A stretch of DNA of 64,000 nt from an uncultured Candidatus Rokubacteria bacterium. GTDB taxonomy: Bacteria; Methylomirabilota; Methylomirabilia; Rokubacteriales; DASRDR01. The notes under the pieces are model-generated. The model made no database searches and was not told the DNA's origin. It worked only from the letters and a program-made list of their open reading frames with translations. The stretch is from contig CAWGVS010000006.1 in the NCBI GenBank assembly GCA_963826115.1, positions 64,001 through 128,000 of the forward strand, in the 5' to 3' direction. Within the stretch, counting starts at the first letter, position 1; each line of letters begins with the position of its first letter. The position numbers and the translations under genes were made by a program. This document shows, in pieces, positions 1,700-55,552 of the stretch.

Positions 1700-1759
1700 C
1701 GTGGTCGGCCGCCCGTCCTCGAGGCGACCGGGCTCCCGGTCGCGGCCCGGAAGGCGGGC

Positions 1760-3946: not shown

Positions 3947-4000
3947 ACGGCCCCTTCCGGGGCGACCTTCCTTCGCGCGGAAAGGACGGGCGACGGCGAC

Positions 4001-6953: not shown

Positions 6954-7702
6954 CGCCGCCGTCGACGGGCGGGAGCGCAGGGGGCGGCGGCCCCATCCTG
7001 GAGGCCCAGGACCTCGTCGCGGGCTACGGCCAGATCCGCGCGCTGAAGGGCATCTCGTTCCGGGTGGGCGAGGGCCAGGTCGTCGCTCTCATCGGGGCGA
7101 ACGGGGCGGGGAAGTCGACGACGCTCCGGGTGCTCTCCGGGCTCATCCGGGCCCAGGCGGGTCAGGTGCGTCTCAGAGGCGAGGATCTCGGCCGGGCCAC
7201 GCCGGCGGAGATCGTTCGGCGCGGGGTTGTCCACTGCCCGGAGGGGCGCCGCATCTTCACGCGGCTGTCCGTACTGGAGAACCTGCGCCTCGGGCACTAC
7301 ACGCGGCGCAAGACCGCCGACGAGGCCGCGGCGCTCGAGCGGGTGTTCACCCTCTTTCCGATCCTGCGAGAGCGGCAGAGCCAGTTCGGCGGGACGCTGT
7401 CGGGTGGTGAGCAGCAGATGCTGGCCATCGGGCGGGCCCTCATGACGGAGCCGAAGGTCCTGCTTCTCGATGAGCCCTCGCTCGGGCTGGCGCCGCTCCT
7501 GGTCCAGCAGATCTTCCGGACGATCCAGGAGATCAATCGCCAGGGGACCGTGGTGCTGCTGGTGGAGCAGAACGCGAACCTCGCCCTCCGGATGGCGGAT
7601 CGGGCCTACGTGCTAGAGGCCGGCCGGATCGTGCTCGAGGGCAGCGGCGCGGAGCTCCTCGCCAACGACGCCGTGCGGAGAGCCTATCTCGGCGAGGACT
7701 AG
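6950..7702 (+). CDS. livF: Branched-chain amino acid ABC ATPase
   Basis: GANGAGKS, LSGGEQQML, LLLDEPSLGLAP; TTG start overlapping the upstream TGA. Confidence 0.9.
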   Translation: MTPPSTGGSAGGGGPILEAQDLVAGYGQIRALKGISFRVGEGQVVALIGANGAGKSTTLRVLSGLIRAQAGQVRLRGEDLGRATPAEIVRRGVVHCPEGRRIFTRLSVLENLRLGHYTRRKTADEAAALERVFTLFPILRERQSQFGGTLSGGEQQMLAIGRALMTEPKVLLLDEPSLGLAPLLVQQIFRTIQEINRQGTVVLLVEQNANLALRMADRAYVLEAGRIVLEGSGAELLANDAVRRAYLGED

Positions 7703-7833
7703 CGGCCGCCGCCCGATGCGAGTCCCGGAACGCCGTCGGCCCGCCGGAATGCTCGCGCAGGAGCACCCGGCGGGCCGAGTCGTGTCACTCGAGGGACGCG
7801 GTCAGCCGCGCGGGCGGCCGGCCGGGCGCCCGA

Positions 7834-9018
7834 TCACTCCTTCCACTGCTCGACGAGCTTGATTTCGCCCTTCTCCACCGTATAGATGTAGAGCGGGCCG
7901 TTGATGACGTCGCCGTTGTCGTCGAACTTGTACTCGGGGATCAACAGGCCCGGCACCGCCGACTTGTGCATGACGTCGATGATCTTGTTCTTGTCGGTGC
8001 TGCCGGCCTTCACGATCGCGTTGGCGACGATGTTGGCGAAGTCGTAGCCGTAGCTGTCGTAGTTGGCCGGGTCCTTGCCGTACTTCTTCTTGAACTTCTC
8101 GGAGAACTCCTTCACCTTCGGCGGGGCCTGTGGCCCGGTGTGAGGCGGCGCCTGGAAGGTGAAGTACACGGCCTCCGCATCCGACTTCTTGTCGACCGCG
8201 GCCCCAGCAGTCTTCACCATGCCGGCGTCGAAGTATCCGTCGCAGCCGACGATCGGCTTCTTGTATCCGAGCTGACGAGCCTGCTTGATCATCAGACCGA
8301 TGGAGGTGGGGAAGTTCGAGCAGTAGACGAGGGCGTCCGGATTCTCGGTCTTGACGATCTTGGTCAGCACCGCGGTGTAGTCGACGTCGTTGCGCTCGAC
8401 GCCGCCGGACGATGTAATCATGCCGCCGGCCTTCTCGATGGTGGCCTTGGCGACATCGGTTACGCCCTGGCCGAAGGCCTGCTTGTCGTTGAGGAGCGCG
8501 AACTTCTTCGCCTTGAACTTCCGCATGGCATACGCCACGCCGGCCTTGCCCTGGATGTTGTCGTTGGCGATCGGCCGGAACAGGTTCTTGAAGCCCTGCT
8601 GGGTGATCGTCGGGTTGGAGGACAGCGTCACCATCGGCAGGTTGACCTTGTTGATGATCGGCGCGCCGGCGATCGTCGTGCCCGAGCACACGTGCCCGAT
8701 GAACACGACGTTCTTGGCGTCGTCGGCGATCTTCGTGGCGACGGTGCCCGCCTGCTTCGGATCGCAGGCATCGTCCTCCGTGACGACCACGAACTTCCGG
8801 CCGCCGAGGACCCCGCCCTTGGCGTTCCACTCCTCGAAGGCGAGCTGGATGCCCTTGAGGTATCCTTGCCCGAACTGGGCGGCATCGCCCGTCAGGGGGC
8901 CCGCCCACGCGATCTGGATCGGGGCGGGCGCCTGCGCCGGAGCGGTCAGCGCCACGCCCAGCACGACGACGAGAGCCGCGAGACACCAGAAGACTCGCGA
9001 AGTGAGACACGCGCGCAT
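7834..9018 (-). CDS. Branched-chain amino acid ABC substrate-binding protein (LivK/LivJ family)
   Basis: Signal peptide; GPLTGDAAQFG, EDDACDPKQA and GHVCSG motifs; AAGGGG RBS. Confidence 0.9.
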   Translation of the reverse strand: MRACLTSRVFWCLAALVVVLGVALTAPAQAPAPIQIAWAGPLTGDAAQFGQGYLKGIQLAFEEWNAKGGVLGGRKFVVVTEDDACDPKQAGTVATKIADDAKNVVFIGHVCSGTTIAGAPIINKVNLPMVTLSSNPTITQQGFKNLFRPIANDNIQGKAGVAYAMRKFKAKKFALLNDKQAFGQGVTDVAKATIEKAGGMITSSGGVERNDVDYTAVLTKIVKTENPDALVYCSNFPTSIGLMIKQARQLGYKKPIVGCDGYFDAGMVKTAGAAVDKKSDAEAVYFTFQAPPHTGPQAPPKVKEFSEKFKKKYGKDPANYDSYGYDFANIVANAIVKAGSTDKNKIIDVMHKSAVPGLLIPEYKFDDNGDVINGPLYIYTVEKGEIKLVEQWKE

Positions 9019-44675: not shown

Positions 44676-46307
44676 GTGAGCGTCGGCGCGGTCGAGTCGT
44701 TCACCGCCGAGGAGCGAGCCCGGCTGGCGCCCCACTTCACGAGCGTCGACGGCCCTGTCTTCGCCCTCGTCAACCTGCCCGAGGTCGTGAAGGGCGCGCT
44801 CTTCGCCCGCTACTCGCGCTCCCCGAAGTCGCTTCGCCGGCTGTTCCTGGACGAGTTCGTCGGCGCCGAGGCGCTGGCGGACGCTGCGCCGGCCGGCGGC
44901 CCGATCGGCACCGAGCGCGCGGAGCGGCTGTTCGAGCGCGTCTTCGTCGAGTACGGCGACGACTCCGTCGCCCAGCTGGGGGGCGTCCACCTCGCGTGCG
45001 AGGGCGTCTCCAACGTGCTCACGAAGCTCCTCGAGTGGGGCCGGCTGATGGCCTACCTCGAGCAGTCGACCCGCTACGTCCCGTACGCGGACCGGCCCGG
45101 CGGGCGCTGGCGCTACCACGTGCCGGCGGAGGTGCGCGACGCGCCCCTCGTGCGCCAGTACGAGGCGACCCTCGACCTCATGTTCGAGACGTACGCCGAA
45201 TGGCTCGAGCGGGTGCAGGAGCACTTCCGGGCGGCCCATCCGCGACAGGCGTCGGACTCCGAGGCCGTGTACCGGAACACGATCCGCGCGAAGGCGCTCG
45301 ACACGCTACGCGGCCTCCTGCCGGCGGCGACACGGTCGAACGTCGGGCTCTACGGCACGGGGCAGGCGTACGAGGCGCTCCTCCTGCGGCTCCGGGCGTC
45401 CCCGCTCGCCGAGGCGCGGGCGTGCGCCGACCTCATGCTGACCGAGCTGCGCAAGGTGATCCCGGCGTTCCTCCGACGCGTGGACGCGCCCGACCGGGGT
45501 GGCGCGTGGTCGGCCTACCTCGCCGCCACGCGGGAGGCCACGGAGAGGGTGACGGCGCAGACCGTGGGGGAGACCGCCGCCCTCTCCCGCCCGGAGGTGG
45601 TCCTCACGGACTTCGATCCCGAGGGCGAGGTCAAGGTCGTCGCCGCCGCGCTCTACGCGGCCTCGGGGCTGCCCGACGACCAGCTCCTCGCGCGCGTGCG
45701 GCGGATGAGCGCCGGGGAGCGAGCGGCGATCCTCGCCGCGTACGTGGGCGAGCGCGGGAACCGCCGCCACAAGCCGGGGCGCGCCCTCGAGCGAACGAGC
45801 TACCGGTTCGACGTCCTGACGGACTACGGCGCCTTCCGCGACCTCCAGCGGCACCGGCTCCTGTCTCTCGAGTGGCAGCCCCTCGGCCCCCGACATGGCT
45901 ACGCGATGCCGGACGCGGTCGAGGCGGCGGGCGCCGGCGCCGACTGGCGGCGGGTGATGGACGCGTCCGCGGAGCTCCACGACGCGCTCTCGGCCGGGGG
46001 CCTCGCCGCCGTCGCGCCGTACGCGGTGTGCATGGCCTACCGGATCCGCTTCTACATGGAGATGAACGCCCGCGAGGCGATGCACGTGCTCGAGTTGCGG
46101 ACGGCGCCCCAGGGCCATCCCGCGTACCGGCGCGTCTGCCAGGCGATGCATCGCCTCATCGCCGAGGACGCCGGGCACCGCGGGCTCGCCGCGGCCATGC
46201 GCTTCGTCGACCACTCGGCCGTGGAGCTGGAGCGCCTCGAGGCTGAGCGGCGGACCGACGCCCGCCGGCGCACCCTGTCGGAGGCCGGCCCCGCCGAGCG
46301 CCCCTGA
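44676..46307 (+). CDS. thyX: FAD-dependent thymidylate synthase, long two-domain form
   Basis: GALFARYSRS, YGDDSVAQL, EQSTRYV, RDLQRHR and LELRTAPQGH motifs. Confidence 0.85.
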   Translation: MSVGAVESFTAEERARLAPHFTSVDGPVFALVNLPEVVKGALFARYSRSPKSLRRLFLDEFVGAEALADAAPAGGPIGTERAERLFERVFVEYGDDSVAQLGGVHLACEGVSNVLTKLLEWGRLMAYLEQSTRYVPYADRPGGRWRYHVPAEVRDAPLVRQYEATLDLMFETYAEWLERVQEHFRAAHPRQASDSEAVYRNTIRAKALDTLRGLLPAATRSNVGLYGTGQAYEALLLRLRASPLAEARACADLMLTELRKVIPAFLRRVDAPDRGGAWSAYLAATREATERVTAQTVGETAALSRPEVVLTDFDPEGEVKVVAAALYAASGLPDDQLLARVRRMSAGERAAILAAYVGERGNRRHKPGRALERTSYRFDVLTDYGAFRDLQRHRLLSLEWQPLGPRHGYAMPDAVEAAGAGADWRRVMDASAELHDALSAGGLAAVAPYAVCMAYRIRFYMEMNAREAMHVLELRTAPQGHPAYRRVCQAMHRLIAEDAGHRGLAAAMRFVDHSAVELERLEAERRTDARRRTLSEAGPAERP

Positions 46308-46322: not shown

Positions 46323-47225
46323 TCAGCCGCGGGCGCCGCGCGGCGCCGGGTCCGCGTCGGCCTCGACGAGCGCGGCGAGCGCGGCGAGCCCCCCGAGATC
46401 CCGCGGCCGCCTCAGCCGGCGCACGGGCACCGTGGCCGCGAGCCGGGCGCAGCGCGCGAGGAAGCTCGACGTGCCGAGCTGCTCGAGCGCCGGCGCGATG
46501 TAGGCGTGCTGGAGCAGCTCGAAGACCGCGGTGTGCCCGCCGAGGGGCTCGAGGCCCAGCGGCTCGCCGTTGGCAAGGACGTAGAGGCGTCGGAGAGCCT
46601 GCGGGGCCATCGCCCGGATGCTGGGGACCTTCGCTCGCTTCTCCTCGTTCGCGTAGAGGCGGGGCAGCGCCTCGGGGTTCTCGCCGAGGGCGGACACCGC
46701 ATCGGGCCAGAGCTTGAGCTGGGGGAATCCCGGCACGACGGTCGGCCCGGCCGGCGCGTCGAGGTCCACGGCGAGCACGTCGTCCGCCACGACGGCGCCG
46801 CCGCGCGCGTGGAGCGCCGCCGTCGTGGTCGACTTCCCGTCGCCGGAATGGCCGAGGAACGCGACCGCGCCGCCGGCGACGGTCGCCGCGCTCGCGTGAA
46901 GAACGACGAGGCCGCGCTGGTGAAGGAGCACGCCAAGCGCCGGTCCGAGCAGGTAGAGGCGCAGGAGCTCCGGGGGCACCCCCGGCCGCGGGTCGACCGT
47001 GATCTCCTCGCCGCGGCGCAGGAGGATCGTGCCGACCTCGGGCCACGCGAGGCGGGCCTCGCCGTCCGTCACGCTGAGCAAGTGCCCGCCGGCCGGCGGC
47101 GGGCTCGGGACGTCCGGGACCCTGCCCAGGCGCACCACGACGTCCGGCGGGGCCGGGCCCGGGACGAGCTCCGGCAGTTCGAGCGCCGAGTGGATACCCA
47201 GGCCGTACGCGACGTACGTGAACAC
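46323..47225 (-). CDS. HPr-kinase-like RiPP kinase (PadeK/ThcoK-like)
   Basis: LHAS, Walker A GHSGDGKST and ADD motifs; last gene of the lasso cluster. Confidence 0.85.
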   Translation of the reverse strand: MFTYVAYGLGIHSALELPELVPGPAPPDVVVRLGRVPDVPSPPPAGGHLLSVTDGEARLAWPEVGTILLRRGEEITVDPRPGVPPELLRLYLLGPALGVLLHQRGLVVLHASAATVAGGAVAFLGHSGDGKSTTTAALHARGGAVVADDVLAVDLDAPAGPTVVPGFPQLKLWPDAVSALGENPEALPRLYANEEKRAKVPSIRAMAPQALRRLYVLANGEPLGLEPLGGHTAVFELLQHAYIAPALEQLGTSSFLARCARLAATVPVRRLRRPRDLGGLAALAALVEADADPAPRGARG

Positions 47226-47269
47226 GGGCGGCGCGCCTGGCGCCGGGGGGTCCTTCCTGGAGCCAGCCG

Positions 47270-47800
47270 TCAGGCGGCGGGCTCGGTCTCGCGCAGCGCC
47301 AGCTCGACCCGGAGGGCGGCGACGTCGCCGCGCAGCGCCCTGAGCTCGCGCTCGAGGGCTTCGAGCCGCGTCGCCTGGGCCTGCACGAGGCCGTGGAGGC
47401 CCTGGATGGCCGCGAGGGCGACCCCGGCCGCGTCGAGGGGGAAGATGTGGCGGTCGTCGACCCCCAGGCCGAAGGCCGCGGCGAAGTCCTGGGCCATCGG
47501 TCCCAGGTGACGGACCGGCTCACCCTTGTAGGACCAGCGCTCGATCGGCAGCGCAACGACCGCCGCCAGGACCGAGTGCCGATCGACGGCTTCGAATTCT
47601 TCTTTGGCGTTCCGGTCGCTTTGTACTGTGCCCGATTGGCCAAGGGTGAGAGCGGAGAGGCGCCCGTGCTCGGTGAGCCGAGGGCTTCGGTACGGCTTCC
47701 GGGCGCTGGTGGACGCCGGCGTCGCGGGCTCGGCGTCCGTCTGACCATTCGTGACGATCACGTCGCTCGTCGGTGCCTGGGTCGCGATGCGCTGGTCCAT
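47270..47800 (-). CDS. Lasso precursor-Peptidase S74 fusion A3 (176 aa)
   Basis: Leader YRSPRLTEHGRLSALTL, core GQSGTVQSD, SDRNAK, WSYK, HLGPMAQDF, coiled coil; GGAGG RBS. Confidence 0.88.
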   Translation of the reverse strand: MDQRIATQAPTSDVIVTNGQTDAEPATPASTSARKPYRSPRLTEHGRLSALTLGQSGTVQSDRNAKEEFEAVDRHSVLAAVVALPIERWSYKGEPVRHLGPMAQDFAAAFGLGVDDRHIFPLDAAGVALAAIQGLHGLVQAQATRLEALERELRALRGDVAALRVELALRETEPAA

Positions 47801-47868
47801 GGCGTCCCTCCCGAAGTCCGAAGGATCAGGCCGGCCACGCCACCCTGCGCCGGCATGGAGCGCTCACA

Positions 47869-47884
47869 AGCGGGTGCCGTGCCC
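47869..47884 (-). promoter_or_regulatory. Sigma54-like -24/-12 element upstream of A3
   Basis: Minus strand GGGCACG-GCAC-CCGCT (GG-N10-GC; CC instead of TT). Confidence 0.35.
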
Positions 47885-47931
47885 CTCTCCATCTTGCGCC
47901 GAGTGGAACGTCCGCTTCAAGGGTCGGAGCG

Positions 47932-48459
47932 TCAGGGGACGGGCTCGCTCTCACGCAGGGCGAGTTCGACCCGGAGGGCGGCGGCGTCTCCGCGTAACTC
48001 CGCCAACTGGCGCTCGAGGGCTTCGAGCCGCGTCGCCTGGGCCCGCACGAGGCCGTGGAGGCCCTGGATGGCCGCGAGGGCGACCCCGGCCGCGTCGAGG
48101 GGGAAGATGTGGCGGTCGTCGACCCCCAGGCCGAAGGCCGCGGCGAAGTCCTGGGCCATCGGTCCCAGGTGACGGACCGGCTCACCCTTGTAGGACCAGC
48201 GCTCGATCGGCAATGCGGCGACCGCCGCCAGGACTGAATGACGATCGACGGCTTCGAATTCTTCTTTGGCGTTCCGGTCGCTCGGTGGGCTGGATTGGCC
48301 AAGGGTGAGACCGGACAGGCGCCCGTGCTCGGTGAGCCGGGGGCGCGTGTACGGCTTCCGGGCGCTGGTGGACGTCTCCGTCGCGGGCCCGGCCTCCGTC
48401 TGACCCTGGGCGACACTCGGGTCGCTCGTCGGTGTCTGGCTCGGGATGCTCGAGTCCAT
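47932..48459 (-). CDS. Lasso precursor-Peptidase S74 fusion A2 (175 aa)
   Basis: Leader YTRPRLTEHGRLSGLTL, core GQSSPPSD, SDRNAK, HLGPMAQDF; AGGAGG RBS before ATG 48459. Confidence 0.88.
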   Translation of the reverse strand: MDSSIPSQTPTSDPSVAQGQTEAGPATETSTSARKPYTRPRLTEHGRLSGLTLGQSSPPSDRNAKEEFEAVDRHSVLAAVAALPIERWSYKGEPVRHLGPMAQDFAAAFGLGVDDRHIFPLDAAGVALAAIQGLHGLVRAQATRLEALERQLAELRGDAAALRVELALRESEPVP

Positions 48460-48522
48460 GGCGTCCCTCCTGAAGACCGAAGGATCGGGCCGACCATGCC
48501 GGTCGCAGGCATGGAGTGTTGA

Positions 48523-48538
48523 AGCGGACGTCGTGCCG
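48523..48538 (-). promoter_or_regulatory. Sigma54-like -24/-12 element upstream of A2
   Basis: Minus strand CGGCACG-ACGT-CCGCT (GG-N10-GC; CC instead of TT). Confidence 0.35.
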
Positions 48539-48586
48539 AGTCCATCTTGCGCCGAGTCGAACGTCCGCTTCAAGGGATTCGGGCCG

Positions 48587-49081
48587 TCAGGCGACGGGCT
48601 CCCTCTCACGCAGGGCGAGCTCGACCCGGAGGGTGGCCGCGTCTCGGCGTAGCGCTGCCAGCTCGCGCTCGAGGGCTTCGAGCCGCGTCGCCTGGGCTTG
48701 CACGAGGCCGTGGAGGCCCTGGATGGCCGCGAGCGCGACTCCGGCCGCGTCGACCGGGAAGATGTGACGGTCGTCCGCGCCGAGGCCGAAGGCCGCGGCG
48801 AAGTCCTGCGCCATCGGCCCGAGATGGCGAGCCGCCTCGCCGCGATAGGACCACCGCTCGATCGGCAGGTGGAGAAGTCCGGCCAGCACCTCGCGGGGGT
48901 CGACCGGCACGAAGCCCTCCTTCAGGGCTCGATCGCTGGTGATGGTCGACGGGCCCGCGGTGGCCGTCGCGATCGTCCCGTGCTCGACCAGGCGGGGCGT
49001 TGCGTAGGGTTTGCGAGCTCCCGCCGGTTGCGGCGGCGGGGGCGTCGCGGGCTGGGGCGTCTCGGCCGGCTTCCGCTCCAT
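48587..49081 (-). CDS. Lasso precursor-Peptidase S74 fusion A1 (164 aa)
   Basis: Hidden at the end of listed ORF 48587..50680; AAGGAG RBS; leader YATPRLVEHGTIATATA, core GPSTITSD, SDRALK, HLGPMAQDF. Confidence 0.88.
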   Translation of the reverse strand: MERKPAETPQPATPPPPQPAGARKPYATPRLVEHGTIATATAGPSTITSDRALKEGFVPVDPREVLAGLLHLPIERWSYRGEAARHLGPMAQDFAAAFGLGADDRHIFPVDAAGVALAAIQGLHGLVQAQATRLEALERELAALRRDAATLRVELALREREPVA

Positions 49082-49137
49082 GGGGTCAGCTCCTTTTCGG
49101 ACGGCGGGTGAACGACGAGCGGGGATGCGCGCGGACC

Positions 49138-51021
49138 TCACGGCGTCGCGCGGCGAAGCCACAGGGTCAGGACGGCGAGCCGCCACACGGCGCGCACCTC
49201 CCGCATCCCGTCCCGTGTCGCGTACGCGCGATAAGTGCGCCGGACGGTCTCCGACGGCACGTACGGGTCGAGCGTGCGCGCGGCCTCGCGCATGAGGACG
49301 TCGAGCCGTTCGCGGCCGTACACGGTGAGCGCCGAGCGGAGCATCAGGTCGATCGGGGCCTTCCCGCGCCGGTCCCGGATCTCGGCAGGCAAGAGCGTGG
49401 CGAGGGCGTGCCGCGCGACGATGCGCGTCAGGCCGCGCCGGATCTTCTGGGACGCCGGGAGCGCGAGGCAGAACTCCATGACCCGGCGGTCGAGGAAGGG
49501 GTCCCGCGAGTCGAGCCCCACCGCGTCGCCGGCGGCGGCCAGCGTTTCCAGGGTGGCCGCCATCCGGGGCGCGGTCAGCTGGCGCCAGTGATCGTAGCGC
49601 GCCCACTCGACGCCGGTCGGCGGCGGCCCGGGCTCCGCCGCCCTGAGCCGCTCGTCGAGCCGGATCCGCCGCGCGAAGTCGGTCCGGATCAGCGGCGGCC
49701 CCAGGACGCCCTGGCGGCGCAGGCGTCGCCAGGCGCGGCGGGCCGGCCGGGGCGCCACCGAGGCCGCGACCATCCGCAGGACGCGCCAGGCCGATCGCTC
49801 GAACGACCGCGAGAACCGGCGCGCCTCTCGGGCGAGCGCCAGCCACCGGCCCTGGCGGGCGAGGTCGCCCAGGTAACCCGTTCCGTGGGAAACGACGACG
49901 TCGCCCCCGGTTCCCTCCAGGAACGTGCGCATCCCGTCGGCGCTCGCCGCGCGGTAGAGCGCCCAGTGCATGTAGTACCCGGGCGCCCTGAACACCTCGT
50001 CCCCCGGCCCGGCCTCGCGCTCGAAATCCCCGAGCGGGTCGAGCACGTCCCCGCGGACGTGGCGCGGCGCGAGCCCGCCGCCCGCCTCGACGGCCGCGAC
50101 GTAGGCGCCCTCGTCGCAGGAGGGGATCGTCGGGAAGCGCGCCGTGTAGGTCGTGAGCGGACCCGTGCCCATCGCCGCTTGGACCGCGCGAGCGACGCAC
50201 ACCACCGCCGAGGAGTCGAGCCCGCCGCTCAGCGCGGCGGCGACGGGGCCCGCGCTGCGGAGGCGGCAGCGCACGGCGTCGGTGAACAGCTCGCGGAACC
50301 GCTCGGCGTACTCGGCGTCCGACCCGAGCCGCAACTCTCGCATCGGGTCGAGCTGCCAGTAGGGTCGCGGCGCGGCGGCGCCGGCCGGGGTCACGATCAG
50401 GGAATGCCCCGCCGGCAACCGGGCGATGTCCTCGTGGAGCGTGGCGGTCCGATTGTCGAGCCCCGGGACGAGGTAGGCGGCGATTCGGAGCTCGTCGATC
50501 CGCCGCGGGACGTCGGGGATCGCGAACAGGGCGGCCGTCCCCGAGGCGGCGGCGAACACGCGCGGGCCGGCATGATAGTAGAGGGGCTTCACGCCCGCCG
50601 GATCGCGCGCGCAGAAGAGCACCCGGCGCCGGGCGTCCCACACGACGAACGCGAAATCGCCCAGGAGCCGCGCCGCGCACGCCTCGCCCCAGCGCTCCCA
50701 GGCGCGGAGGATGAGCGCCCCGTCGCCGAGGTCGTCGGCGCGCCGCGGGTCGAGGTCGAGGGCCGCGGCGAGCTCGGCGCGGTTGTCGAGCCGCGCGTCG
50801 GCGGTGACGACCACCTCGCCGGTGTCGCTCGCCCGGGGCAGCTTCTCCTCGAGGCCCGTGGCGCCGGCCCGGAGCGCCCGGTGGCCGAGGCCGACCGGGC
50901 CGTCCAGCCAGACGCCGACGGCGTCGGCGGCGCGGGGCGCGAGACGCTCGGTGACCCGGTCGAGCGCCAGTCGGTCGAGCGGCGCGCCGTCGAGCCGCCG
51001 GATCGCGGCGATGCCGCTCAT
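49138..51021 (-). CDS. Lasso macrolactam synthetase (asparagine synthetase-like C protein)
   Basis: N-terminus MSG lacks the glutaminase Cys; ARDPAGVKPLYY, LSGGLDSS and DPFLDRRV motifs; ATGA overlap with B2. Confidence 0.9.
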   Translation of the reverse strand: MSGIAAIRRLDGAPLDRLALDRVTERLAPRAADAVGVWLDGPVGLGHRALRAGATGLEEKLPRASDTGEVVVTADARLDNRAELAAALDLDPRRADDLGDGALILRAWERWGEACAARLLGDFAFVVWDARRRVLFCARDPAGVKPLYYHAGPRVFAAASGTAALFAIPDVPRRIDELRIAAYLVPGLDNRTATLHEDIARLPAGHSLIVTPAGAAAPRPYWQLDPMRELRLGSDAEYAERFRELFTDAVRCRLRSAGPVAAALSGGLDSSAVVCVARAVQAAMGTGPLTTYTARFPTIPSCDEGAYVAAVEAGGGLAPRHVRGDVLDPLGDFEREAGPGDEVFRAPGYYMHWALYRAASADGMRTFLEGTGGDVVVSHGTGYLGDLARQGRWLALAREARRFSRSFERSAWRVLRMVAASVAPRPARRAWRRLRRQGVLGPPLIRTDFARRIRLDERLRAAEPGPPPTGVEWARYDHWRQLTAPRMAATLETLAAAGDAVGLDSRDPFLDRRVMEFCLALPASQKIRRGLTRIVARHALATLLPAEIRDRRGKAPIDLMLRSALTVYGRERLDVLMREAARTLDPYVPSETVRRTYRAYATRDGMREVRAVWRLAVLTLWLRRATP

Positions 51022-51452
51022 CGCGGCGTGCCCAGCGCCGACAGGCTCACGTAGCGGGTCTCGACCGGGCCGCCGATCACGACGCGCCCGTCGTGCTCGA
51101 GCCAGGCGTGCGCCTCGAAGCCGCGACCTCCGCCACCGGCCACCCCCAGCTTGAGCTCGCTCGGGTGCCCGTGACGGCCGAGCAGGGCGTGCGCCGCCAG
51201 CGCCCGGACGAGGCACGTCGTCCGCGGCACAAGGCAGTCGGCGGCGCCCACGGCCCAGACGATCCGTTCGACCGACGGTGTCCGGCCCGTCCGTATGCCG
51301 GGGTCATTCGCGAGCGCGCCCACCGCGCCGTGGACGCGCCGGAACGGGAGCACCCACAGTCCGACGCGGACGCCCGCCAGGAGCCCCGCGGCGGCAAGGA
51401 CCAGGCGTTGCTCGGCGGACGGCAGCGCGAGGAATCTAGCGACGCGCCTCAC
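51018..51452 (-). CDS. Lasso B2 leader peptidase (transglutaminase-like)
   Basis: TCLVRALA, LGV and AHAWLE Cys-His catalytic motifs. Confidence 0.92.
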   Translation of the reverse strand: MRRVARFLALPSAEQRLVLAAAGLLAGVRVGLWVLPFRRVHGAVGALANDPGIRTGRTPSVERIVWAVGAADCLVPRTTCLVRALAAHALLGRHGHPSELKLGVAGGGGRGFEAHAWLEHDGRVVIGGPVETRYVSLSALGTPR

Positions 51453-51735
51453 CGGAGACCTCGAGAAGCCCGGCCTCGGCCATGGTCCGGAGGAGGGCGA
51501 GGAGGTCCGCCTCGCAGCGCGCGGAGTCGACCTCGTACTCCCGGAGCAGCGCGTCCCGGACGTCCCGCACGCGCCGCGGCGTCGCGATGAGCTCCCAGAT
51601 GCGGGCTCCGATCGGGTCCAGCCCGTAGTAGACGCCGGCCTTCAGCTGGACGATCGCGACCTCGTCCTCGAGGCGGCAGGAGGCCTGCTCCTTCGAGGCC
51701 ACGACGACCGTGTCGAGCGAGATGGCGCCGTCCAC
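51436..51735 (-). CDS. Lasso B1 / PqqD-family RiPP recognition element
   Basis: GVYYGLDPIGARIWELI...EYEV...ADLLALL...GLL; about 99 aa from GTG 51735. Confidence 0.92.
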   Translation of the reverse strand: MDGAISLDTVVVASKEQASCRLEDEVAIVQLKAGVYYGLDPIGARIWELIATPRRVRDVRDALLREYEVDSARCEADLLALLRTMAEAGLLEVSGEARR

Positions 51736-51778
51736 GGTGTCAGGCGCTCCCCGGCGCGCCGTCGCTCGGCACGGCCCG

Positions 51779-51807
51779 ATCGTATCCCGGTCCCCCGCGC
51801 GCGACAA
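51779..51807 (-). promoter_or_regulatory. Sigma70-like promoter of the lasso operon
   Basis: Minus strand TTGTCG-N17-TACGAT, about 45 nt upstream of B1. Confidence 0.5.
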
Positions 51808-51819
51808 TCGCGCGCGGCG

Positions 51820-53022
51820 CTAGGCCGGGCCGCGGAAGTCGTCCTTCGCGGCCCGGAGCGCGGCCGGGTCGGCCAGGAGGTCGAGGGCGGTCAGCGCGAG
51901 AGCCTTGGCGCCGGCCACCATGCCGGCTCGCGCGAGCGGCGTCGCGTTGTGCTCCGCGAACTCGCGCGAATGGCCCGGTACCCCGTCGGGCGCCGTACGG
52001 ATGTAGGGATGGATCGTGGGGAGGGCCTGGCTCACGTTTCCGGCGTCCGTCGAGCCGTACCCCGCCTGGCCGTCGTCGGGGTCCACGGGAAAGTCGATGC
52101 GCGCGAGGTTTCGCTCGAAGAGATCCGCCATCGGCGCGTTCGGCTTGAGCGGGTCGTGGATCCGCGGATCCACCGTCACCTGGACGCGGCAGCCCGTCGC
52201 CAGGGCCGCGCCCTCCGCGGCCGCCTCGAACCGTCGCCGGATCTCCTGGAGGTACGTCCTGTCGAGCGAGCGGAGGTAGAAGTCCGCGGCGGTGTACTCC
52301 GGGATGATGTTGGGCTGCTGCCCGCCCACCGTGATCACCCCGTGGATGCGCGCGTCGGGGCGGAGCTGCTGCCGCATCGCGTCCAGCGCGTTGAAGAGCC
52401 CGATGACGGCGTTGAGCGCGTTGACCCCGCGCCACGGCCACGACGCCGCGTGCGCCGCGGTGCCGAAGTACTCCACCTTCGCCTTCATGAGCCCGAGGGT
52501 CGGGCGCCAGACCTGGGTGCCGCAGCGCGGGTGGATCATCATGGCCGCGTCGACGTCCTGGAACACGCCCGCGTCCATGAGCTTGACCTTGCCCGCGCCG
52601 CCCTCCTCCGCGGGCGTGCCGACCACCGTGATCCGGCCCGGGTAGGGGAAGTGCCCCCCGGCGAGGCTCGCGGCGGCGACGGCGAGCGCGGCGCCCGCGC
52701 CGGCGCCGGCGGTCGCGATGACGTTATGGCCGCAGGCGTGGCCGATGCCGGGAAGCGCGTCGTACTCGGCCATCACGGCGATCGTCGGGCCGTCGGCCGT
52801 GCCGGGCACCTCGGCGCGGAAGGCGGTCGGCAGGCCGCCCACCCCGCGCTCGACGCGGCAACCCCGGCGCTCGAGGAACTCCGTCAGCCAGCGCGCCGCC
52901 TGCTCCTCCTTGAACGCGAGCTCGGGGTGCGCGTGGATCTGGAGCGCGAGTCGCCAGAGATCCTCGGCCATTCCGTCGACGGCGTCGGTCACGCGGCTCT
53001 TGAGACGGTCCAGGTCGCTCAT
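51820..53022 (-). CDS. M20 amidohydrolase (ACY1L2/AbgB-like)
   Basis: HPELAFKE, EYDALPGIGHACGHN, GTPAEEG and GSTDAGNVS motifs. Confidence 0.9.
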   Translation of the reverse strand: MSDLDRLKSRVTDAVDGMAEDLWRLALQIHAHPELAFKEEQAARWLTEFLERRGCRVERGVGGLPTAFRAEVPGTADGPTIAVMAEYDALPGIGHACGHNVIATAGAGAGAALAVAAASLAGGHFPYPGRITVVGTPAEEGGAGKVKLMDAGVFQDVDAAMMIHPRCGTQVWRPTLGLMKAKVEYFGTAAHAASWPWRGVNALNAVIGLFNALDAMRQQLRPDARIHGVITVGGQQPNIIPEYTAADFYLRSLDRTYLQEIRRRFEAAAEGAALATGCRVQVTVDPRIHDPLKPNAPMADLFERNLARIDFPVDPDDGQAGYGSTDAGNVSQALPTIHPYIRTAPDGVPGHSREFAEHNATPLARAGMVAGAKALALTALDLLADPAALRAAKDDFRGPA

Positions 53023-53118
53023 GGCGGGCCTCCACGGAGGGATCGGGCGAGTGGGGCGCGACTCGGCGCGGGCCGCAGGCTCCCACGCCCGTCCCGCGAC
53101 TGTCAAGGCGACGTCCCG

Positions 53119-54249
53119 TCACCGGCCGGCGGCGCGCCGCGCCTCGGCCCGGCGGCCCGCGGCGATCCGGTCGTCCAGCGATGGGTGCGTGGCGAAGAGG
53201 AGCTCCCGGAGTCGCCCGGGCCGGCGCTCGGCGAGGTTGAGGCGGCCGAGCCGCTCCATGGCGGCGACGAAGGCCGCGGGCGCCCCGCTCACGTCGAGCG
53301 CGATCCGGTCGGCCTCGCGCTCGAGGCGCCGCGACCACGCGGCGATCGGCGGCGTGGCGAGGAGCCCCAGCACGCTGACCACCAGGGCCAGGAACGGCAG
53401 GCCCGCGGGGTCCGCGGGGCCGGCGAGGCCGAGCGACGCGACGCCCATGCGGAGAGCCCGGTCGGCGACCCAGAGGGTCGCGACCAGGAGGGCGCCGTGG
53501 AGCAGGAGACCCTGCGTCATGTGGCTCCGCGCGTGGTGTCCGAGCTCGTGGGCGAGGACGACCTCCACCTCCTCGACGGGGAACTCGCGGAGGAGCGTGT
53601 CGCTCACGAGGATGCGCCGCGTGCGTCCGAGTCCCACCACCGCCGCATTCGCGACGCGGCCCTTGCGCGAGAAGTCGGCAACCAAGACCTCCGCGGCCCG
53701 GACGCCCATCCGCGCGGCGAGCGCGAGGATCCGGGCGCGGAGCTCCCGATCCTCGAGCGGCGTCAGCCGGTAGAAGAGGGGCACGAGCCACACGGGCACC
53801 ACCAAGGTCAGGAGCACGAGGCCCGCCGCCAGCACGCCGCTCGCCCAGAGCCACCACCGCTCCGGGCTCCACTGGAGGAGGCCGTACACCACCTGGGCGG
53901 CGAGGAGCCCGAGCGCGCCGCCGATCGCGAGCGCCTTCGCGCGGTCGCCCAGCCAGCCGGCGAAACGCTGCGTCAGGAGTCCCGCCCGGCGCGGGAGGAC
54001 GAAGCCGCCGACGACGTCGAGCGGAAAGGTCAGGAGCGCCTGCGTGACGCCGAGCGCCAGCGTCATCGTCGCGACGACCGCCGCGGCGGGGAGCCACCCG
54101 TCGAGCCCCGCGGCCAGGCGCGTGGCGGCGCCGCTCCACGCCCACCACACGAGGAGCACGGCGCCGAGCCCGAGGTCGACCAGCGAGAGCGCGAACTGAC
54201 GCCGGTGATACTCGCGGGCCCGGGTGGCCTCCGCGTCGCGCGCGTCCAT
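53119..54249 (-). CDS. M48 Ste24-like membrane metallopeptidase
   Basis: NAAVVG, SDTLL, HELGH, EREAD and THP motifs. Confidence 0.9.
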   Translation of the reverse strand: MDARDAEATRAREYHRRQFALSLVDLGLGAVLLVWWAWSGAATRLAAGLDGWLPAAAVVATMTLALGVTQALLTFPLDVVGGFVLPRRAGLLTQRFAGWLGDRAKALAIGGALGLLAAQVVYGLLQWSPERWWLWASGVLAAGLVLLTLVVPVWLVPLFYRLTPLEDRELRARILALAARMGVRAAEVLVADFSRKGRVANAAVVGLGRTRRILVSDTLLREFPVEEVEVVLAHELGHHARSHMTQGLLLHGALLVATLWVADRALRMGVASLGLAGPADPAGLPFLALVVSVLGLLATPPIAAWSRRLEREADRIALDVSGAPAAFVAAMERLGRLNLAERRPGRLRELLFATHPSLDDRIAAGRRAEARRAAGR

Positions 54250-54310
54250 CGCTTCACAAGCGTAGCGCGGACGCCCGCGCGCGGCCACCCGCGCGCGCCG
54301 CGGTGGTACG

Positions 54311-55552
54311 ATGACTCGCGTGACGAAGCCGCCTCCGGCCGAGCGCCGCGCGCCCGACGTGACCGACGCGCTGGCGCCGGGGGCCGTCGGCGCGGTCCGG
54401 GTGCGCCCGAACACCCGCGTGCTCGGTCTCCTGGCGCTCGGCCACCTCGTGGTCGACATGAACCAGGGGTCGATCGCGCCGCTCTTGCCCTTCTTCAAGT
54501 CGGCCTTCGGGCTGTCCTACGCGGCGTCCGGGGTCATCCTGCTCGTGGGGAACATGACCTCGTCGATCGTCCAGCCGGTGTTCGGCTACCTCGCGGACCG
54601 GGCGCCGCGGCGTTGGCTCCTGCCCTGGGCCGTGCTCCTGTCGGCGGTCGGGGTCGCCGTGGCCGGGGTGGCGCCGTCGTACTGGGGCCTGCTGGCGGTG
54701 GTCGTCGTGTCGGGGCTCGGCGTCGCCGCCTATCACCCCGAGGGCTACCGCACGGCGAACCAGGTCGCGGGCGACCGGAAGGCCACGGGACTGTCGCTCT
54801 TCTCGATCGGCGGGAACATCGGCATCGCCCTCGGGCCGCCGGCGATCGCCTTCCTCGTCCCGCGGTTCGGCCTGCCCGGGACCCTCGGCCTCCTCGGGCC
54901 CGGCCTCGTGGTCGCGGCGCTGATCGCCGCGATCCTGCCGGCGCTCATCGCGGCGCCCGCCAAGAGCGCGCCGGCGCGCACGGCGGGGGAGCGCGGCCGC
55001 GACATGCCGGGGGCCATGGCGCTCCTCATCGGGGTCGTGACCGTGCGGTCGTGGACGCAGCTCGGCCTGATCGCCTACGTGCCCTTCCTCTACGTCGACC
55101 TCCTCGGCAAGGACCCGCGCGTCGCCGGGCCGCTCCTCTTCCTCTTCCTCGGCGCCGGCGCCGTGGGCACGCTCACCGGCGGCCCGATCGCCGACCGCTG
55201 GGGCCCGCGGCGCTATCTCGTCGGGAGCTTCCTCCTGTCGACGCCGCTGATCGCGCTCTTCCTCTGGTGGCCGGGCGGCTGGGTGGCCGCGATCACGCTC
55301 GCGGCGGCCGGCTTCGTCCTGGTGTCGTCGTTCTCGGTGACCGTCGCGCTCGGTCAGGCCTATCTCCCGCGGCGTCTCGGCATGGCGGCCGGCCTGATCG
55401 TGGGGCTGGCCATCGGCACGGGCGGGCTCGGCGTCGCGCTGCTCGGCTGGGTCGCGGACCACTGGGGCCTCTACGCCGCGCTCCACCTGATCGCCGCGCT
55501 CCCGCTCGCCGGCCTCGCCGTCGCGCTCTGTCTGCCCGAGCCCCGGGCCTAA
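54311..55552 (+). CDS. MFS transporter (Fsr-like)
   Basis: GHLVVD, QPVFGYLADR, AYHPEG and FSIGGNIG motifs. Confidence 0.88.
   Translation: MTRVTKPPPAERRAPDVTDALAPGAVGAVRVRPNTRVLGLLALGHLVVDMNQGSIAPLLPFFKSAFGLSYAASGVILLVGNMTSSIVQPVFGYLADRAPRRWLLPWAVLLSAVGVAVAGVAPSYWGLLAVVVVSGLGVAAYHPEGYRTANQVAGDRKATGLSLFSIGGNIGIALGPPAIAFLVPRFGLPGTLGLLGPGLVVAALIAAILPALIAAPAKSAPARTAGERGRDMPGAMALLIGVVTVRSWTQLGLIAYVPFLYVDLLGKDPRVAGPLLFLFLGAGAVGTLTGGPIADRWGPRRYLVGSFLLSTPLIALFLWWPGGWVAAITLAAAGFVLVSSFSVTVALGQAYLPRRLGMAAGLIVGLAIGTGGLGVALLGWVADHWGLYAALHLIAALPLAGLAVALCLPEPRA

What the first reader, a model, noticed from the sequence alone, without database searches (positions are those of the whole stretch)
46323..51807. 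Lasso-type RiPP cluster whose precursors are fused to a self-cleaving Peptidase S74 chaperone domain (possible 'lasso proteins')
Seen: a co-directional operon RRE(B1)-B2 protease-cyclase C-A1-A2-A3-kinase. No short precursor ORF was found. Instead three 164-176 aa ORFs each carry an exact lasso leader (Y-17, P-14, L-12, G-8, T-2), then Gly1, then about 122 aa containing SDxxxK...WSY...HLGPMAQDF and a C-terminal coiled coil. Established: YxxPxL leaders bind lasso RREs and B2 cuts after T-x. Lasso cores are normally about 15-25 aa. The SDxxxK/GxxAQ/coiled-coil domain is the intramolecular chaperone autoprocessing (Peptidase_S74) domain of phage tailspikes and MYRF, which trimerises and self-cleaves through a Ser-Lys dyad. 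Inference: lasso machinery acts on a folded, trimerising autoprotease substrate. I do not recognise this architecture from characterised RiPPs. Annotation would probably label these genes 'tail fiber domain proteins' and miss the precursors.
Basis: partly seen in the sequence, partly recalled or inferred. Interest (0 to 1): 0.95.

Follow-up and report, generated by a model that had tools for sequence, protein, structure and literature searches.

The report
Lasso-peptide precursors with self-cleaving S74 tails
A soil-bacterium operon for knotted "lasso" peptides makes its three precursors as 164-176-residue proteins ending in a phage-type self-cutting, trimer-forming domain, a design shared by a large family that I could not find described in print.

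Summary
On the minus strand lie B1 (PqqD RRE), B2 (transglutaminase-like protease), C (lasso cyclase, over NCBIfam's cut-off), three paralogues A1-A3 and a P-loop kinase. Each A has a lasso leader (YxxPxL...G...Tx), then Gly1, 6-7 variable residues, then a Peptidase_S74 domain that starts exactly at its catalytic Ser (SDxxxK).

These are the only three S74 domains, and C the only lasso cyclase, in the 6.2 Mb genome. No separate short precursor exists.

The "lasso protein" interpretation is only partly supported. The fusion is a large family in Methylomirabilota, Chloroflexota, Armatimonadota and Planctomycetota. In 8 of 12 loci with context the kinase gene is adjacent to A.

In the more distant relatives 82 of 106 unique cores are 13-20 residues, and 47 have Asp/Glu at position 8. 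One such cluster encodes a protein that a source names from Capsulimonas corticalis.

S74 is therefore most likely a conserved, trimerising follower that cuts itself off before its Ser. In the window's genus the core has shrunk, so S74's own Asp sits at position 8/8/9. What the cyclase closes on here is unresolved.

Cyanobacteria attach S74 to double-glycine-leader precursors next to YcaO genes. Ten literature searches found no description.

The parts
51436..51807 (-). B1: PqqD-type RiPP recognition element (123 aa, TTG start). It overlaps B2 by 17 nt.
   Evidence: PF05402 PqqD, E 1.7e-17, 63.9 bits. NF033536 lasso_PqqD_Bac scores 59.8 bits, below its cut-off of 80. Orthologues stand next to S74 precursors in L001, L003, L004, L006, L026 and L155.
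51018..51452 (-). B2: transglutaminase-like leader peptidase (144 aa).
   Evidence: PF13471 Transglut_core3, E 1e-22. NF033537 lasso_biosyn_B2, 88.4 bits against a cut-off of 33.
49138..50946 (-). C: ATP-dependent lasso macrolactam cyclase, an asparagine-synthetase homologue (602 aa from the ATG at 50946; a GTG 21 nt upstream is also possible).
   Evidence: NF033535 lass_lactam_cya, 588.2 bits against a cut-off of 525. Asn_synthase 2.9e-46 and GATase_7 1.4e-21. It is the only match over the cut-off in the genome.
48587..49081 (-). A1 precursor (164 aa). Leader YATPRLVEHGTIATATA, core GPSTIT, then the S74 domain from Ser49 (SDRALK).
   Evidence: Translation. PF13884, 35.4 bits against 22, residues 49-98. 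NF033521, 16.9 bits against a cut-off of 19.
47932..48459 (-). A2 precursor (175 aa). Leader YTRPRLTEHGRLSGLTL, core GQSSPP, then the S74 domain from Ser60 (SDRNAK).
   Evidence: Translation. PF13884, 40.0 bits. NF033521, 15.3 bits.
47270..47800 (-). A3 precursor (176 aa). Leader YRSPRLTEHGRLSALTL, core GQSGTVQ, then the S74 domain from Ser61 (SDRNAK). A C-terminal helix spans residues 121-171.
   Evidence: Translation. PF13884, 37.2 bits. NF033521, 22.7 bits, over the cut-off of 19. In the AF2 monomer the helix 121-171 has block pLDDT 57-96, and 82-96 over residues 131-170; the whole model is poor (mean 62.8).
46323..47225 (-). K: P-loop kinase-like protein of the HprK/PEPCK fold class (300 aa; GHSGDGKST P-loop). 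It follows the last A gene.
   Evidence: Hpr_kinase_C, 20.2 bits, below the gathering score of 33.3. TIGR04352, 23.4 bits against 200. AF2 model pLDDT 82.6, pTM 0.84. Foldseek best hits are PEP carboxykinases (E 5e-5) and HprK/P 1kkl (E 1.2e-4, TM 0.52 on the target). The Atlas's nearest clusters are auto-named 'Serine kinase family protein'. The gene is adjacent to A in 8 of 12 loci with a leader-S74 gene.

Best explanation
A1-A3 are the true precursors of this lasso-type pathway. They belong to a large family whose precursors have three parts: an RRE-binding lasso leader, a hypervariable core, and a conserved C-terminal Peptidase_S74 domain that begins at its own catalytic Ser.

Proposed course of events (all steps are inferred; only the anatomy is shown):
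1. B1 binds the YxxPxL leader.
2. The kinase K, and in relatives a nucleotidyl- or glycosyl-transferase, modifies a Ser of the precursor. A candidate is the semi-conserved Ser 4-5 residues before the junction.
3. B2 cuts after T-x and frees residue 1.
4. C ties the new N-terminus to an Asp/Glu at position 7-9.
5. The S74 domains trimerise through their C-terminal coiled coil. The Ser-Lys dyad then cuts the bond just before the Ser. The tail removes itself and so sets the peptide's C-terminus.

In other words, S74 acts as a self-removing follower. It may also serve as a scaffold or protective handle.

This scheme gives an ordinary 13-20-residue lasso peptide in the long-core relatives. In the window's genus the core has shrunk to 5-11 residues. 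In all three window genes the only acid within reach of the cyclase is S74's own invariant Asp, at core position 8, 8 and 9.

My split for the window:
- About 0.35-0.4: C closes the ring on that Asp, so the small ring stays covalently attached to S74.
- About 0.3: no ring is made, and short linear, possibly phosphorylated peptides are released.
- The rest: other outcomes.
For: Identity as precursors:
- The leader pattern, the S74 domain and the lasso cyclase each occur in the genome only here, and they occur together.
- There are three tandem paralogues directly after C.
- NF033521 hits all three.
- Leader residues Y37, P40, L42 and G46 are invariant across 35 sequences that include loci titled from three phyla.

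Family and context:
- 10 of 80 genome loci carry leader-S74 ORFs. Of these, 4 also have B1, B2, C and K, 1 has K on a cut contig, 1 has B1, B2 and K without C, and 4 are orphans.
- A further full cluster, C-A-K-B1-B2-NTP_transf_5, lies in G843.

S74 as a follower:
- 114 of 119 more distant relatives carry the leader.
- Their 106 unique cores are 6-22 residues long, with a mode of 16-17.
- 54 have an internal Asp/Glu at positions 7-9. In 47 it is at position 8 (Asp in 94% of those), within the consensus G1-x-G3...T7-D8-G9-x-x-G12-S13.

Conservation pattern:
- Mean pairwise identity is 66% for the leader, 25% for the core and 82% for S74.

Autoprotease parts kept:
- SDxxxK is present in 119 of 119 leader-bearing close homologues.
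- S61, D62, R63, K66, W89 and Y91 are invariant.
- In MyRF the homologous domain cuts between P586 and S587 through a Ser-Lys dyad, and only as a trimer (PMC8326128, passages).

Generality:
- 16 cyanobacterial ORFs in 10 loci have a double-glycine-type leader, then 40-50 residues, then S74.
- A fused wHTH/ThiF-YcaO gene follows in 10 loci, and a C39-ABC exporter lies in 3.

The cyclase tracks an acceptor:
- The cyclase-less Planctomycetota clusters have 12-14-residue spacers with no acid at positions 7-9.
Against: - No step has been observed.
- 51 of the 106 long cores have no acid at positions 7-9.
- 32 of the 107 unique close-homologue cores have no acid at 7-9 either. There the S74 Asp lies at positions 10-13.
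- If S74 cuts itself off in the window's proteins, the released piece is only 6-7 residues long and carries no acid. The intact and conserved cyclase would then have nothing canonical to do.
- If instead the ring closes on the S74 Asp, the S74 scissile bond lies inside that ring.
- The Asp at position 8-9 may be a by-product. The short cores look like the G-S-x4 tail of the long cores. Ser makes up 0.48 of residues at position -5 in the short cores, and 0.31 at position -4 in the long cores.
- Known lasso kinases act on a C-terminal Ser (PMC8498205, passages). S74 cleavage would leave its Ser on the wrong fragment.
- K's Pfam and NCBIfam scores are below their cut-offs.
- The AF2 monomer of A3 is poor (pLDDT 62.8).
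- A profile of the family found no S74 structure in the PDB by sequence.
Confidence: 0.55

Rival explanations
1. True 'lasso (or lariat) proteins'. B2 frees Gly1 and C joins it to the Asp of S74's SDxxxK motif at position 8 or 9. The whole S74 trimer then remains as the tail, so the end product is a trimeric protein with three N-terminal macrolactam caps. Ring closure at the cleavage site would block or replace self-cleavage.
For: - In the window the S74 Asp is the only acid at positions 7-9 in all three genes.
- In 62 of 107 unique cores of close homologues the S74 Asp is the only acid at positions 7-9.
- The position-8 mode equals the Asp8 ring of the long-core relatives.
- The cyclase is intact and scores over its cut-off. 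It is kept in L001, L003 and L004.
- Engineered C-terminal lasso fusion proteins are listed in a review (PMC8498205, section heading and reference to Zong 2016).
- In MyRF the cut site lies on a 'cable' threaded through a hole about 9 Å wide (PMC8326128). A closed ring there could plausibly prevent cutting (inference).
Against: - The Ser-Lys dyad and the aromatic residues stay invariant, which argues that cleavage is still selected for.
- S74 is the conserved part and the core the variable part.
- Long-core relatives do not need the S74 Asp.
- 32 of 107 cores put that Asp at positions 10-13 with no other acid at 7-9.
- The spacing can be explained as the inherited tail length.
Confidence: 0.25
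2. No macrolactam is made from the window's precursors. B1/B2 remove the leader, K phosphorylates a Ser, and S74 cuts itself off. This releases short linear peptides of 6-7 residues, as in the cyclase-less Planctomycetota clusters. The cyclase is then idle, or acts on something not recognised here.
For: - L006 has B1, B2, A, K and NTP_transf_5 but no cyclase.
- Its genome and two others with such precursors hold only ordinary AsnB-like genes. These score 95-106 bits against the window's C, compared with 311 for a lasso-type C.
- K, not C, is the constant neighbour of A: 8 of 12 loci have K, and 6 of 12 have C.
- The short cores align with the tail of the long cores, not with the ring.
Against: - C is intact, scores over the lasso cut-off and is kept in the genus.
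- A1-A3 are the only leader-bearing ORFs in the genome.
- Planctomycetota spacers are twice as long as the window's.
Confidence: 0.13
3. Head-to-tail or other non-canonical cyclisation. After S74 cleavage, or through its acyl intermediate, the new C-terminal carboxyl of the 6-7-residue core is joined to Gly1. The product would be small Pro/Ser/Gly-rich cyclic peptides.
For: This rests only on composition and logic. The cores are made of P 0.20, S 0.17, G 0.13 and A 0.12. The cores have no side-chain acid, yet the cluster has an ATP-dependent amide-forming enzyme.
Against: I know of no precedent for a lasso cyclase using an alpha-carboxylate (recalled, not searched). Such rings would have 15-24 atoms, smaller than lasso rings of 22-29 atoms (my arithmetic). 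Nothing in the sequences points to it.
Confidence: 0.04
4. The S74 proteins are not substrates. They would be phage-derived or regulatory proteins that merely resemble a leader, and the real precursor lies elsewhere.
For: The three are the genome's only S74 domains. S74 is otherwise typical of long fibre-like proteins, which make up most of the 80 loci.
Against: - There is no other leader-bearing ORF near the cluster, and only 4 other pattern hits in the genome.
- The leader is conserved across sequences from several phyla.
- Fusion and machinery co-occur in four phyla.
- The variable segment lies exactly between the B2 site and the S74 Ser.
Confidence: 0.03

Closest known systems
Phosphorylated and phosphoglycosylated lasso peptide clusters (paeninodin, pseudomycoidin)
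   Same: They have split B1/B2, a cyclase C and an HPr-kinase homologue. Some have a nucleotidyltransferase as well, as in relatives L006 and L155, which carry PF14907 (PMC8498205, passages).
   Different: Their precursors are short and end in the Ser that the kinase modifies. Here the precursor runs on into a domain of about 115 residues. The invariant Ser is that domain's nucleophile, and it would stay on the tail after cleavage. The window holds no transferase and no ABC exporter.
Peptidase_S74 / intramolecular chaperone auto-cleavage (ICA) domain of endosialidase tailspikes, phage fibres and MyRF
   Same: The Pfam match is over the gathering score. The SDxxxK Ser-Lys dyad, the aromatic WSY motif, GPMAQDF and a C-terminal helix fit for a trimeric coiled coil are all present (PMC8326128).
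   Different: There is no triple beta-helix or fibre upstream to be chaperoned. Only a leader and 5-22 variable residues precede the domain. It is encoded in RiPP operons, not in phage or fibre genes.
Triculamin, a lasso peptide that needs a C-terminal follower peptide
   Same: It is a lasso precursor with a functional sequence after the core (bioRxiv 10.64898/2026.07.03.736388, abstract only).
   Different: By the abstract, the follower is a peptide thought to dock on the cyclase, and the pathway is called non-canonical. It is not a folded autoprotease. The window has both a leader with B1/B2 and a follower.
Engineered lasso peptide fusion proteins (Zong, Maksimov, Link 2016)
   Same: They are proteins fused behind a lasso core (cited in PMC8498205, heading and reference list only).
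   Different: They are artificial, and the fused protein is not self-cleaving. I did not read the paper itself.
Bottromycin follower peptide
   Same: It is a conserved C-terminal follower that must be removed after macrocyclisation (PMC10885120, passage).
   Different: It is removed by a separate amidohydrolase (PurAH), not by the follower itself.

Membership tests
Lasso peptide biosynthetic gene cluster | PqqD-type RRE (B1) and transglutaminase-like protease (B2) | tested here: met
   PqqD 1.7e-17 and Transglut_core3 1e-22. NF033537 scores 88.4 bits against a cut-off of 33. The lasso-specific PqqD models score below their cut-offs: 59.8 against 80, and 33.6 against 70.
Lasso peptide biosynthetic gene cluster | Asparagine-synthetase-like macrolactam cyclase | tested here: met
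   NF033535, 588.2 bits against a cut-off of 525. It is the only such gene in the genome.
Lasso peptide biosynthetic gene cluster | Precursor leader with YxxPxL and a penultimate Thr | tested here: met
   The spacing is exact in A1-A3. NF033521 passes its cut-off for A3 only. Y, P, L and G are invariant and T is at least 90% conserved in 35 sequences.
Lasso peptide biosynthetic gene cluster | Core of about 13-26 residues, with residue 1 joined to Asp/Glu at position 7-9 and a short threaded tail (definition recalled) | tested here: not met
   Gly1 and Asp at positions 8, 8 and 9 are present. However, that Asp belongs to the S74 motif, and about 115 residues follow it. Long-core relatives do meet the rule in 54 of 106 cores.
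Lasso peptide biosynthetic gene cluster | Threaded lariat topology of the product | not testable with these tools
   This needs MS/MS, ion mobility, NMR or protease and heat tests on the product.
Peptidase_S74 / ICA domain | Profile match | tested here: met
   PF13884 scores 35.4, 40.0 and 37.2 bits against a gathering score of 22.
Peptidase_S74 / ICA domain | Ser-Lys catalytic dyad (S-x4-K) at the start of the domain | tested here: met
   SDxxxK is present in 119 of 119 leader-bearing close homologues. S61 and K66 are invariant. The dyad's role is taken from PMC8326128.
Peptidase_S74 / ICA domain | C-terminal trimeric coiled coil | tested here: inconclusive
   The AF2 monomer predicts one helix over residues 121-171, with block pLDDT 82-96 over residues 131-170. 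The family profile hits designed coiled coils in the PDB. The oligomeric state was not tested.
Peptidase_S74 / ICA domain | An upstream fibre or triple beta-helix that the domain folds and is then released from | tested here: not met
   Only 48-60 residues (leader plus core) precede the Ser.
Peptidase_S74 / ICA domain | Self-cleavage before the Ser | not testable with these tools
   This needs expression of wild type against the Ser and Lys dyad variants.
HPr kinase-like lasso tailoring kinase | HprK-type P-loop kinase fold | tested here: inconclusive
   Pfam scores 20.2 bits against 33.3, and NCBIfam 23 bits against 200. The AF2 model (pLDDT 82.6) hits PEPCK and HprK/P at E 5e-5 to 1e-4 with TM 0.3-0.55. 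Atlas neighbours are auto-named serine kinases.
HPr kinase-like lasso tailoring kinase | Substrate ends in a C-terminal Ser | tested here: not met
   A1-A3 end in ...EPVA...EPVP and ...EPAA. The rule is taken from PMC8498205.

The most novel reading that the evidence does not exclude
The phage-type S74 autoprotease has been recruited as a general, self-removing, trimerising follower module for ribosomal peptide natural products. It serves at least two unrelated RiPP classes: lasso peptides, and YcaO-dependent peptides in Nostocales. It is also attached to signal-peptide-bearing Cys-rich peptides. In the window's genus the module has merged with the core, so that the lasso cyclase ties residue 1 to the autoprotease's own Asp, next to the scissile bond. 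That would give either genuine lasso- or lariat-capped proteins, or a cyclisation-gated self-cleavage switch.
Probability: 0.3. Interest if true: 0.9.

Novelty: new variant of a known kind. Interest (0 to 1): 0.8.

Why it matters
RiPP genome mining looks for short precursor ORFs. A family whose precursors are 140-180-residue proteins annotated as 'tail fibre domain' or 'hypothetical' is invisible to it.

The family is not small. In my two searches of close and more distant relatives, 119 of 122 and 114 of 119 listed proteins carried the leader.

If S74 is a self-removing follower, it would be a new way of setting a RiPP's C-terminus without a dedicated protease. It would also be a portable, self-cleaving tag for peptide engineering.

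The window's own version places the cyclase's only possible acceptor beside an autoproteolytic bond. That makes the question 'can lasso machinery act on a folded protein?' directly testable with seven genes.

A protein identical to the G843 precursor is named by a source as coming from a Capsulimonas corticalis record. If that organism can be grown, the long-core version can be tested in its native producer.

Tried and rejected
- Complex prediction of B1 (residues 25-123) with the A3 leader region (residues 28-75), each as an alignment, gave 'no answer'. Scores were 0.48, 0.51 and 0.48, but two controls scored 0.44 and 0.47. I draw nothing from it.
- The AF2 monomer of A3 was too poor (pLDDT 62.8) for a fold search.
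- A profile of the family against PDB sequences found only a designed coiled coil.
- The sequencing-run search listed no RNA holder. The best DNA holder had 0.46 of the words. I did not lay reads.
- The metagenome scan with the N-terminal 90 residues of P0165 found only two generic long S74 proteins on short contigs. The context of most long-core members therefore remains unseen.
- Phylum scans were low-yield. A leader-covering hit appeared in 1 of 401 Chloroflexota, 1 of 401 Armatimonadota and 1 of 401 Planctomycetota genomes sampled. In each case this was the known genome or G843.
- In Methylomirabilota, 10 of 251 genomes had an S74 hit, including 7 of 15 genomes of the window's genus.
- I looked for enrichment of an acid at positions 7-9 in close homologues whose S74 Asp lies beyond position 9. 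I found 7 of 39, about what composition alone gives, so there is no support either way (my arithmetic).
- The M20 and M48 peptidase genes upstream are syntenic in L001, L003 and L004. They are separated from B1 by about 1.8-2.4 kb in L003 and L004 and are absent from other phyla. I do not count them as part of the system.
- The loose leader pattern also hit two long fibre-like proteins (L031, L076) far from their S74 motif. I treated these as chance.
- Literature: none of the ten searches found lasso or RiPP precursors with S74. In one search only the top 20 of 766 papers were shown, and none of those held an S74 term.
- Subscription papers and all supplementary tables were out of reach. Large lasso-mining studies may list such precursors there.

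Full report
**What is there.** Window 46323-51807 holds seven co-directional genes on the minus strand.
- B1, 51436-51807: PqqD, E 1.7e-17.
- B2, 51018-51452: Transglut_core3, E 1e-22; NF033537, 88.4 bits against a cut-off of 33.
- C, 49138-50946: NF033535 lasso cyclase, 588.2 bits against a cut-off of 525.
- A1 (48587-49081), A2 (47932-48459) and A3 (47270-47800).
- A P-loop kinase-like gene, 46323-47225.

B1 and B2 overlap by 17 nt. The other gaps are 45-132 nt.

Each A protein reads: about 25-36 variable residues; a leader Y-x-x-P-x-L-x3-G-x5-T-x; Gly1; 5-6 more variable residues; then S-D-R-x-x-K and a Peptidase_S74 domain.

Pfam places S74 model position 1 exactly on that Ser (residues 49, 60 and 61), with scores of 35-40 bits against a gathering score of 22. 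NCBIfam's lasso leader model NF033521 hits all three, but only A3 passes the cut-off (22.7 bits against 19).

**Is it more than chance?** Yes.
- In the whole 6.24 Mb assembly, S74 matches occur only in these three genes.
- Only this cyclase passes the lasso cut-off. Five other AsnB-like genes score 150-212 bits.
- The strict leader pattern occurs 7 times in six frames, and three of those are A1-A3. None of the other four is near the cluster.
- There is no room for, and no trace of, a separate short precursor.

**The family.** A search with A3 returned 4543 proteins of 96-308 residues at E <= 0.001. The best 120 are nearly all about 175 residues long, 62-84% identical, and come from metagenomes and MAGs.

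Of 122 proteins on hand, 119 carry the strict leader, and all 119 have SDxxxK after it.

Across 117 of them the mean pairwise identity is 66% in the leader, 25% in the core and 82% in the first 90 residues of S74. So a hypervariable core lies between two conserved modules.

In genome contigs, 10 of 80 loci found with A3 encode leader-S74 proteins. By record title:
- L001-L004 are Rokubacteria/Methylomirabilota.
- L005-L007, L011 and L022 are Phycisphaerales or Tepidisphaerales.
- L026 is Chloroflexota.

The other 70 loci encode generic, mostly long, S74 proteins.

In the window's phylum, 10 of 251 species genomes have an S74 hit. Seven of the 15 genomes of the window's genus have one, all covering the leader.

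**Context.**
- B1, B2, C and K flank the A genes in L001, L003, L004 and L026.
- L002 is cut but has K.
- L006 has B1, B2, A, K and a PF14907 nucleotidyltransferase, but no cyclase.
- L005, L007, L011 and L022 are orphans.

The three Planctomycetota genomes hold only ordinary AsnB-like genes. These score 227-231 bits on NF033535, and 95-106 bits against the window's C. The Chloroflexota lasso-type C scores 311 bits against the window's C.

Counting the window and L155, K lies beside A in 8 of 12 loci, and C is present in 6 of 12.

**Long-core relatives change the reading.** A profile search of 1.84 billion cluster representatives found 18105 S74 proteins at E <= 0.001. Among the best 150, 18 have a lasso leader before the S74 Ser.

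A search seeded with these gave 119 proteins, of which 114 have the leader. Their 106 unique cores are 6-22 residues long, with a mode of 16-17.
- 54 have an internal Asp/Glu at positions 7-9.
- In 47 it is at position 8, and it is Asp in 94% of those.
- The consensus is G1-x-G3-...-T7-D8-G9-x-x-G12-S13.

These are ordinary lasso cores that end at the S74 cleavage site.

One of them, P0311, is named by a source 'hypothetical protein CCAX7_27030 [Capsulimonas corticalis]'. It is encoded identically in genome G843. There it sits in a cluster C-A-K-B1-B2-NTP_transf_5, followed about 0.5 kb on by an MFS transporter gene. Its core is FIGPNSGDGIIGSQVII, followed by SD.

Multi-cassette precursors also exist: P0204 has two leader-core units and P0123 has five.

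**What S74 does elsewhere.** In MyRF the homologous ICA domain cuts between P586 and S587 by a Ser-Lys dyad, and only as a trimer held by its C-terminal coiled coil. The cut site lies on a 'cable' threaded through a neighbour's beta-'donut' (PMC8326128, passages).

The A proteins keep S, K, W and Y invariant. They also have a confidently predicted long C-terminal helix, although the monomer model as a whole is poor.

**Best explanation.** The A proteins are the precursors. S74 is a conserved, cis-acting follower that trimerises and cuts itself off before its Ser, after or alongside leader-guided processing by B1/B2, K and, where present, C.

This fits four things: the conservation pattern, the long-core relatives, the kept dyad, and the use of the same tail in another RiPP class.

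That other class is seen in 10 cyanobacterial loci. There, 16 ORFs have a double-glycine-type leader (L[STN]D..L...GG), then 40-50 residues, then S74. A fused wHTH/ThiF-YcaO gene lies directly downstream in 10 loci, and a C39-ABC exporter lies in 3.

**The window's special case.** Here the core is only 6-7 residues, and the only acid within reach is S74's own Asp, at positions 8, 8 and 9.

In close homologues that Asp lies at position 7 in 7 rows, 8 in 35, 9 in 36, 10 in 26, 11 in 9, 12 in 5 and 13 in 1, out of 119 rows.
- 75 of 107 unique cores have some acid at positions 7-9.
- For 62 of these it is only the S74 Asp.
- 32 have none.

Either the cyclase closes on that Asp, which gives a ring fused to S74 with the scissile bond inside the ring, or it makes no ring.

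The spacing argument is weakened by one observation. The short cores look like the G-S-x4 tail of the long cores, with Ser peaks at positions -5 and -4 from the junction. Asp at position 8 may therefore be an inherited by-product of tail length.

On the other side, the cyclase is intact and kept in the genus. Also, the lineage that lost the cyclase has long spacers with no acid.

I put the ring-on-S74-Asp outcome at about 0.35-0.4 and no ring at about 0.3.

**The kinase.** Its family scores are below the cut-offs. However, a good AF2 model (pLDDT 82.6) matches PEP carboxykinases and HprK/P, and Atlas neighbours are auto-named serine kinases.

[quoted passage not shown] Here no C-terminal Ser exists, before or after the expected cut. 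The target is unknown. Candidates are the semi-conserved Ser 4-5 residues before the junction, or the S74 Ser itself.

**Novelty.** Ten full-text searches found no lasso or RiPP precursor with an S74, endosialidase-chaperone or tail-fibre domain.
- A 2023 review of RiPP leader and follower removal mentions self-cleavage only for proteases (PMC10885120, passages).
- The nearest precedent for a lasso follower is triculamin (abstract).

Subscription papers and supplementary files could not be searched, so 'not in print' is limited to these searches.

I rate this a new variant of a known kind: lasso biosynthesis with a new precursor architecture. It has a plausible wider principle, S74 as a RiPP follower module.

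Noticed in passing
L034, L043, L053, L054, L055, L058, L061, L069, L071, L080 (also L025, a cut contig): Cyanobacterial loci (Nostoc, Calothrix, Tolypothrix and Aulosira by title), mostly with pairs of 170-200-residue proteins. Each protein has a double-glycine-type leader (e.g. LSDEELAACVGG), a 40-50-residue core ending ...YDPNGSxRYx, then an S74 domain. A fused wHTH/ThiF-YcaO gene lies directly downstream in 10 loci. A C39-peptidase ABC exporter lies in L053-L055, and a TPS-domain protein lies close by, on either strand. This looks like a second RiPP class with S74-tailed precursors.
   Followed up: partly
L006 (G001), with orphans L007 (same genome), L005, L011, L022: A Phycisphaerales cluster has B1-B2-A-K-NTP_transf_5 without any lasso cyclase in the genome. 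Other leader-S74 genes stand alone elsewhere. Spacers are 12-14 residues with no acid at positions 7-9, and three of the five begin with Gln.
   Followed up: partly
L079:2682-3443 and 7641-8357; L046:7416-8330; L016:3266-3742 and 3922-4374: S74 domains lie directly behind small Cys-rich segments. In Chloroflexia these follow a twin-arginine-type signal; in a Myxococcales MAG a lipoprotein-like signal and a Ser/Thr/Gly-rich linker; in a Dadabacteria MAG a Lys-rich N-terminus. The signal types are my reading of the sequence and were not tested.
   Followed up: no
P0123 (382 aa), P0204 (189 aa): These are multi-cassette precursors. P0123 has five leader-core units; the first four are followed by a truncated S74 stub and the last by a full S74. 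P0204 has two units.
   Followed up: no
P0171 (298 aa): A protein with an N-terminal segment that looks PqqD-like, a hydrophobic stretch, a Pro/Thr-rich linker and a C-terminal S74 domain. This is read by eye only.
   Followed up: no
L111 (G648:C122) 1667-1825, minus strand: Beside three S74-tailed precursors lies a 53-residue frame with a full leader and only GGSLTDA before the stop. It is either a truncated copy or a genuinely short precursor.
   Followed up: no
window 47270-48459: A2 and A3 are 98% identical over the first 90 residues of S74 and 82% in the leader, but differ in the core (GQSSPP against GQSGTVQ). A1 is 80-81% identical to both. This suggests recent duplication or gene conversion with core diversification.
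   Followed up: partly
G000:C5:2077666 (+) and G000:C11:48013 (-): Two similar short frames (YAGPVIGS.GRPIFFTC, then AAFSS.TPGYLNA...) matched the leader pattern elsewhere in the genome. There is no acid in the following residues. They are probably unrelated to lasso biosynthesis.
   Followed up: no
window 51820-54498 (minus strand) and 44676-46307 (plus strand): The flanking genes are M20 peptidase, M48/CAAX-type membrane peptidase and a 543-residue ThyX-type protein. They are syntenic in L001 and L003. L004 keeps M20, and L002 keeps ThyX. They are not found beside the cluster in other phyla.
   Followed up: partly
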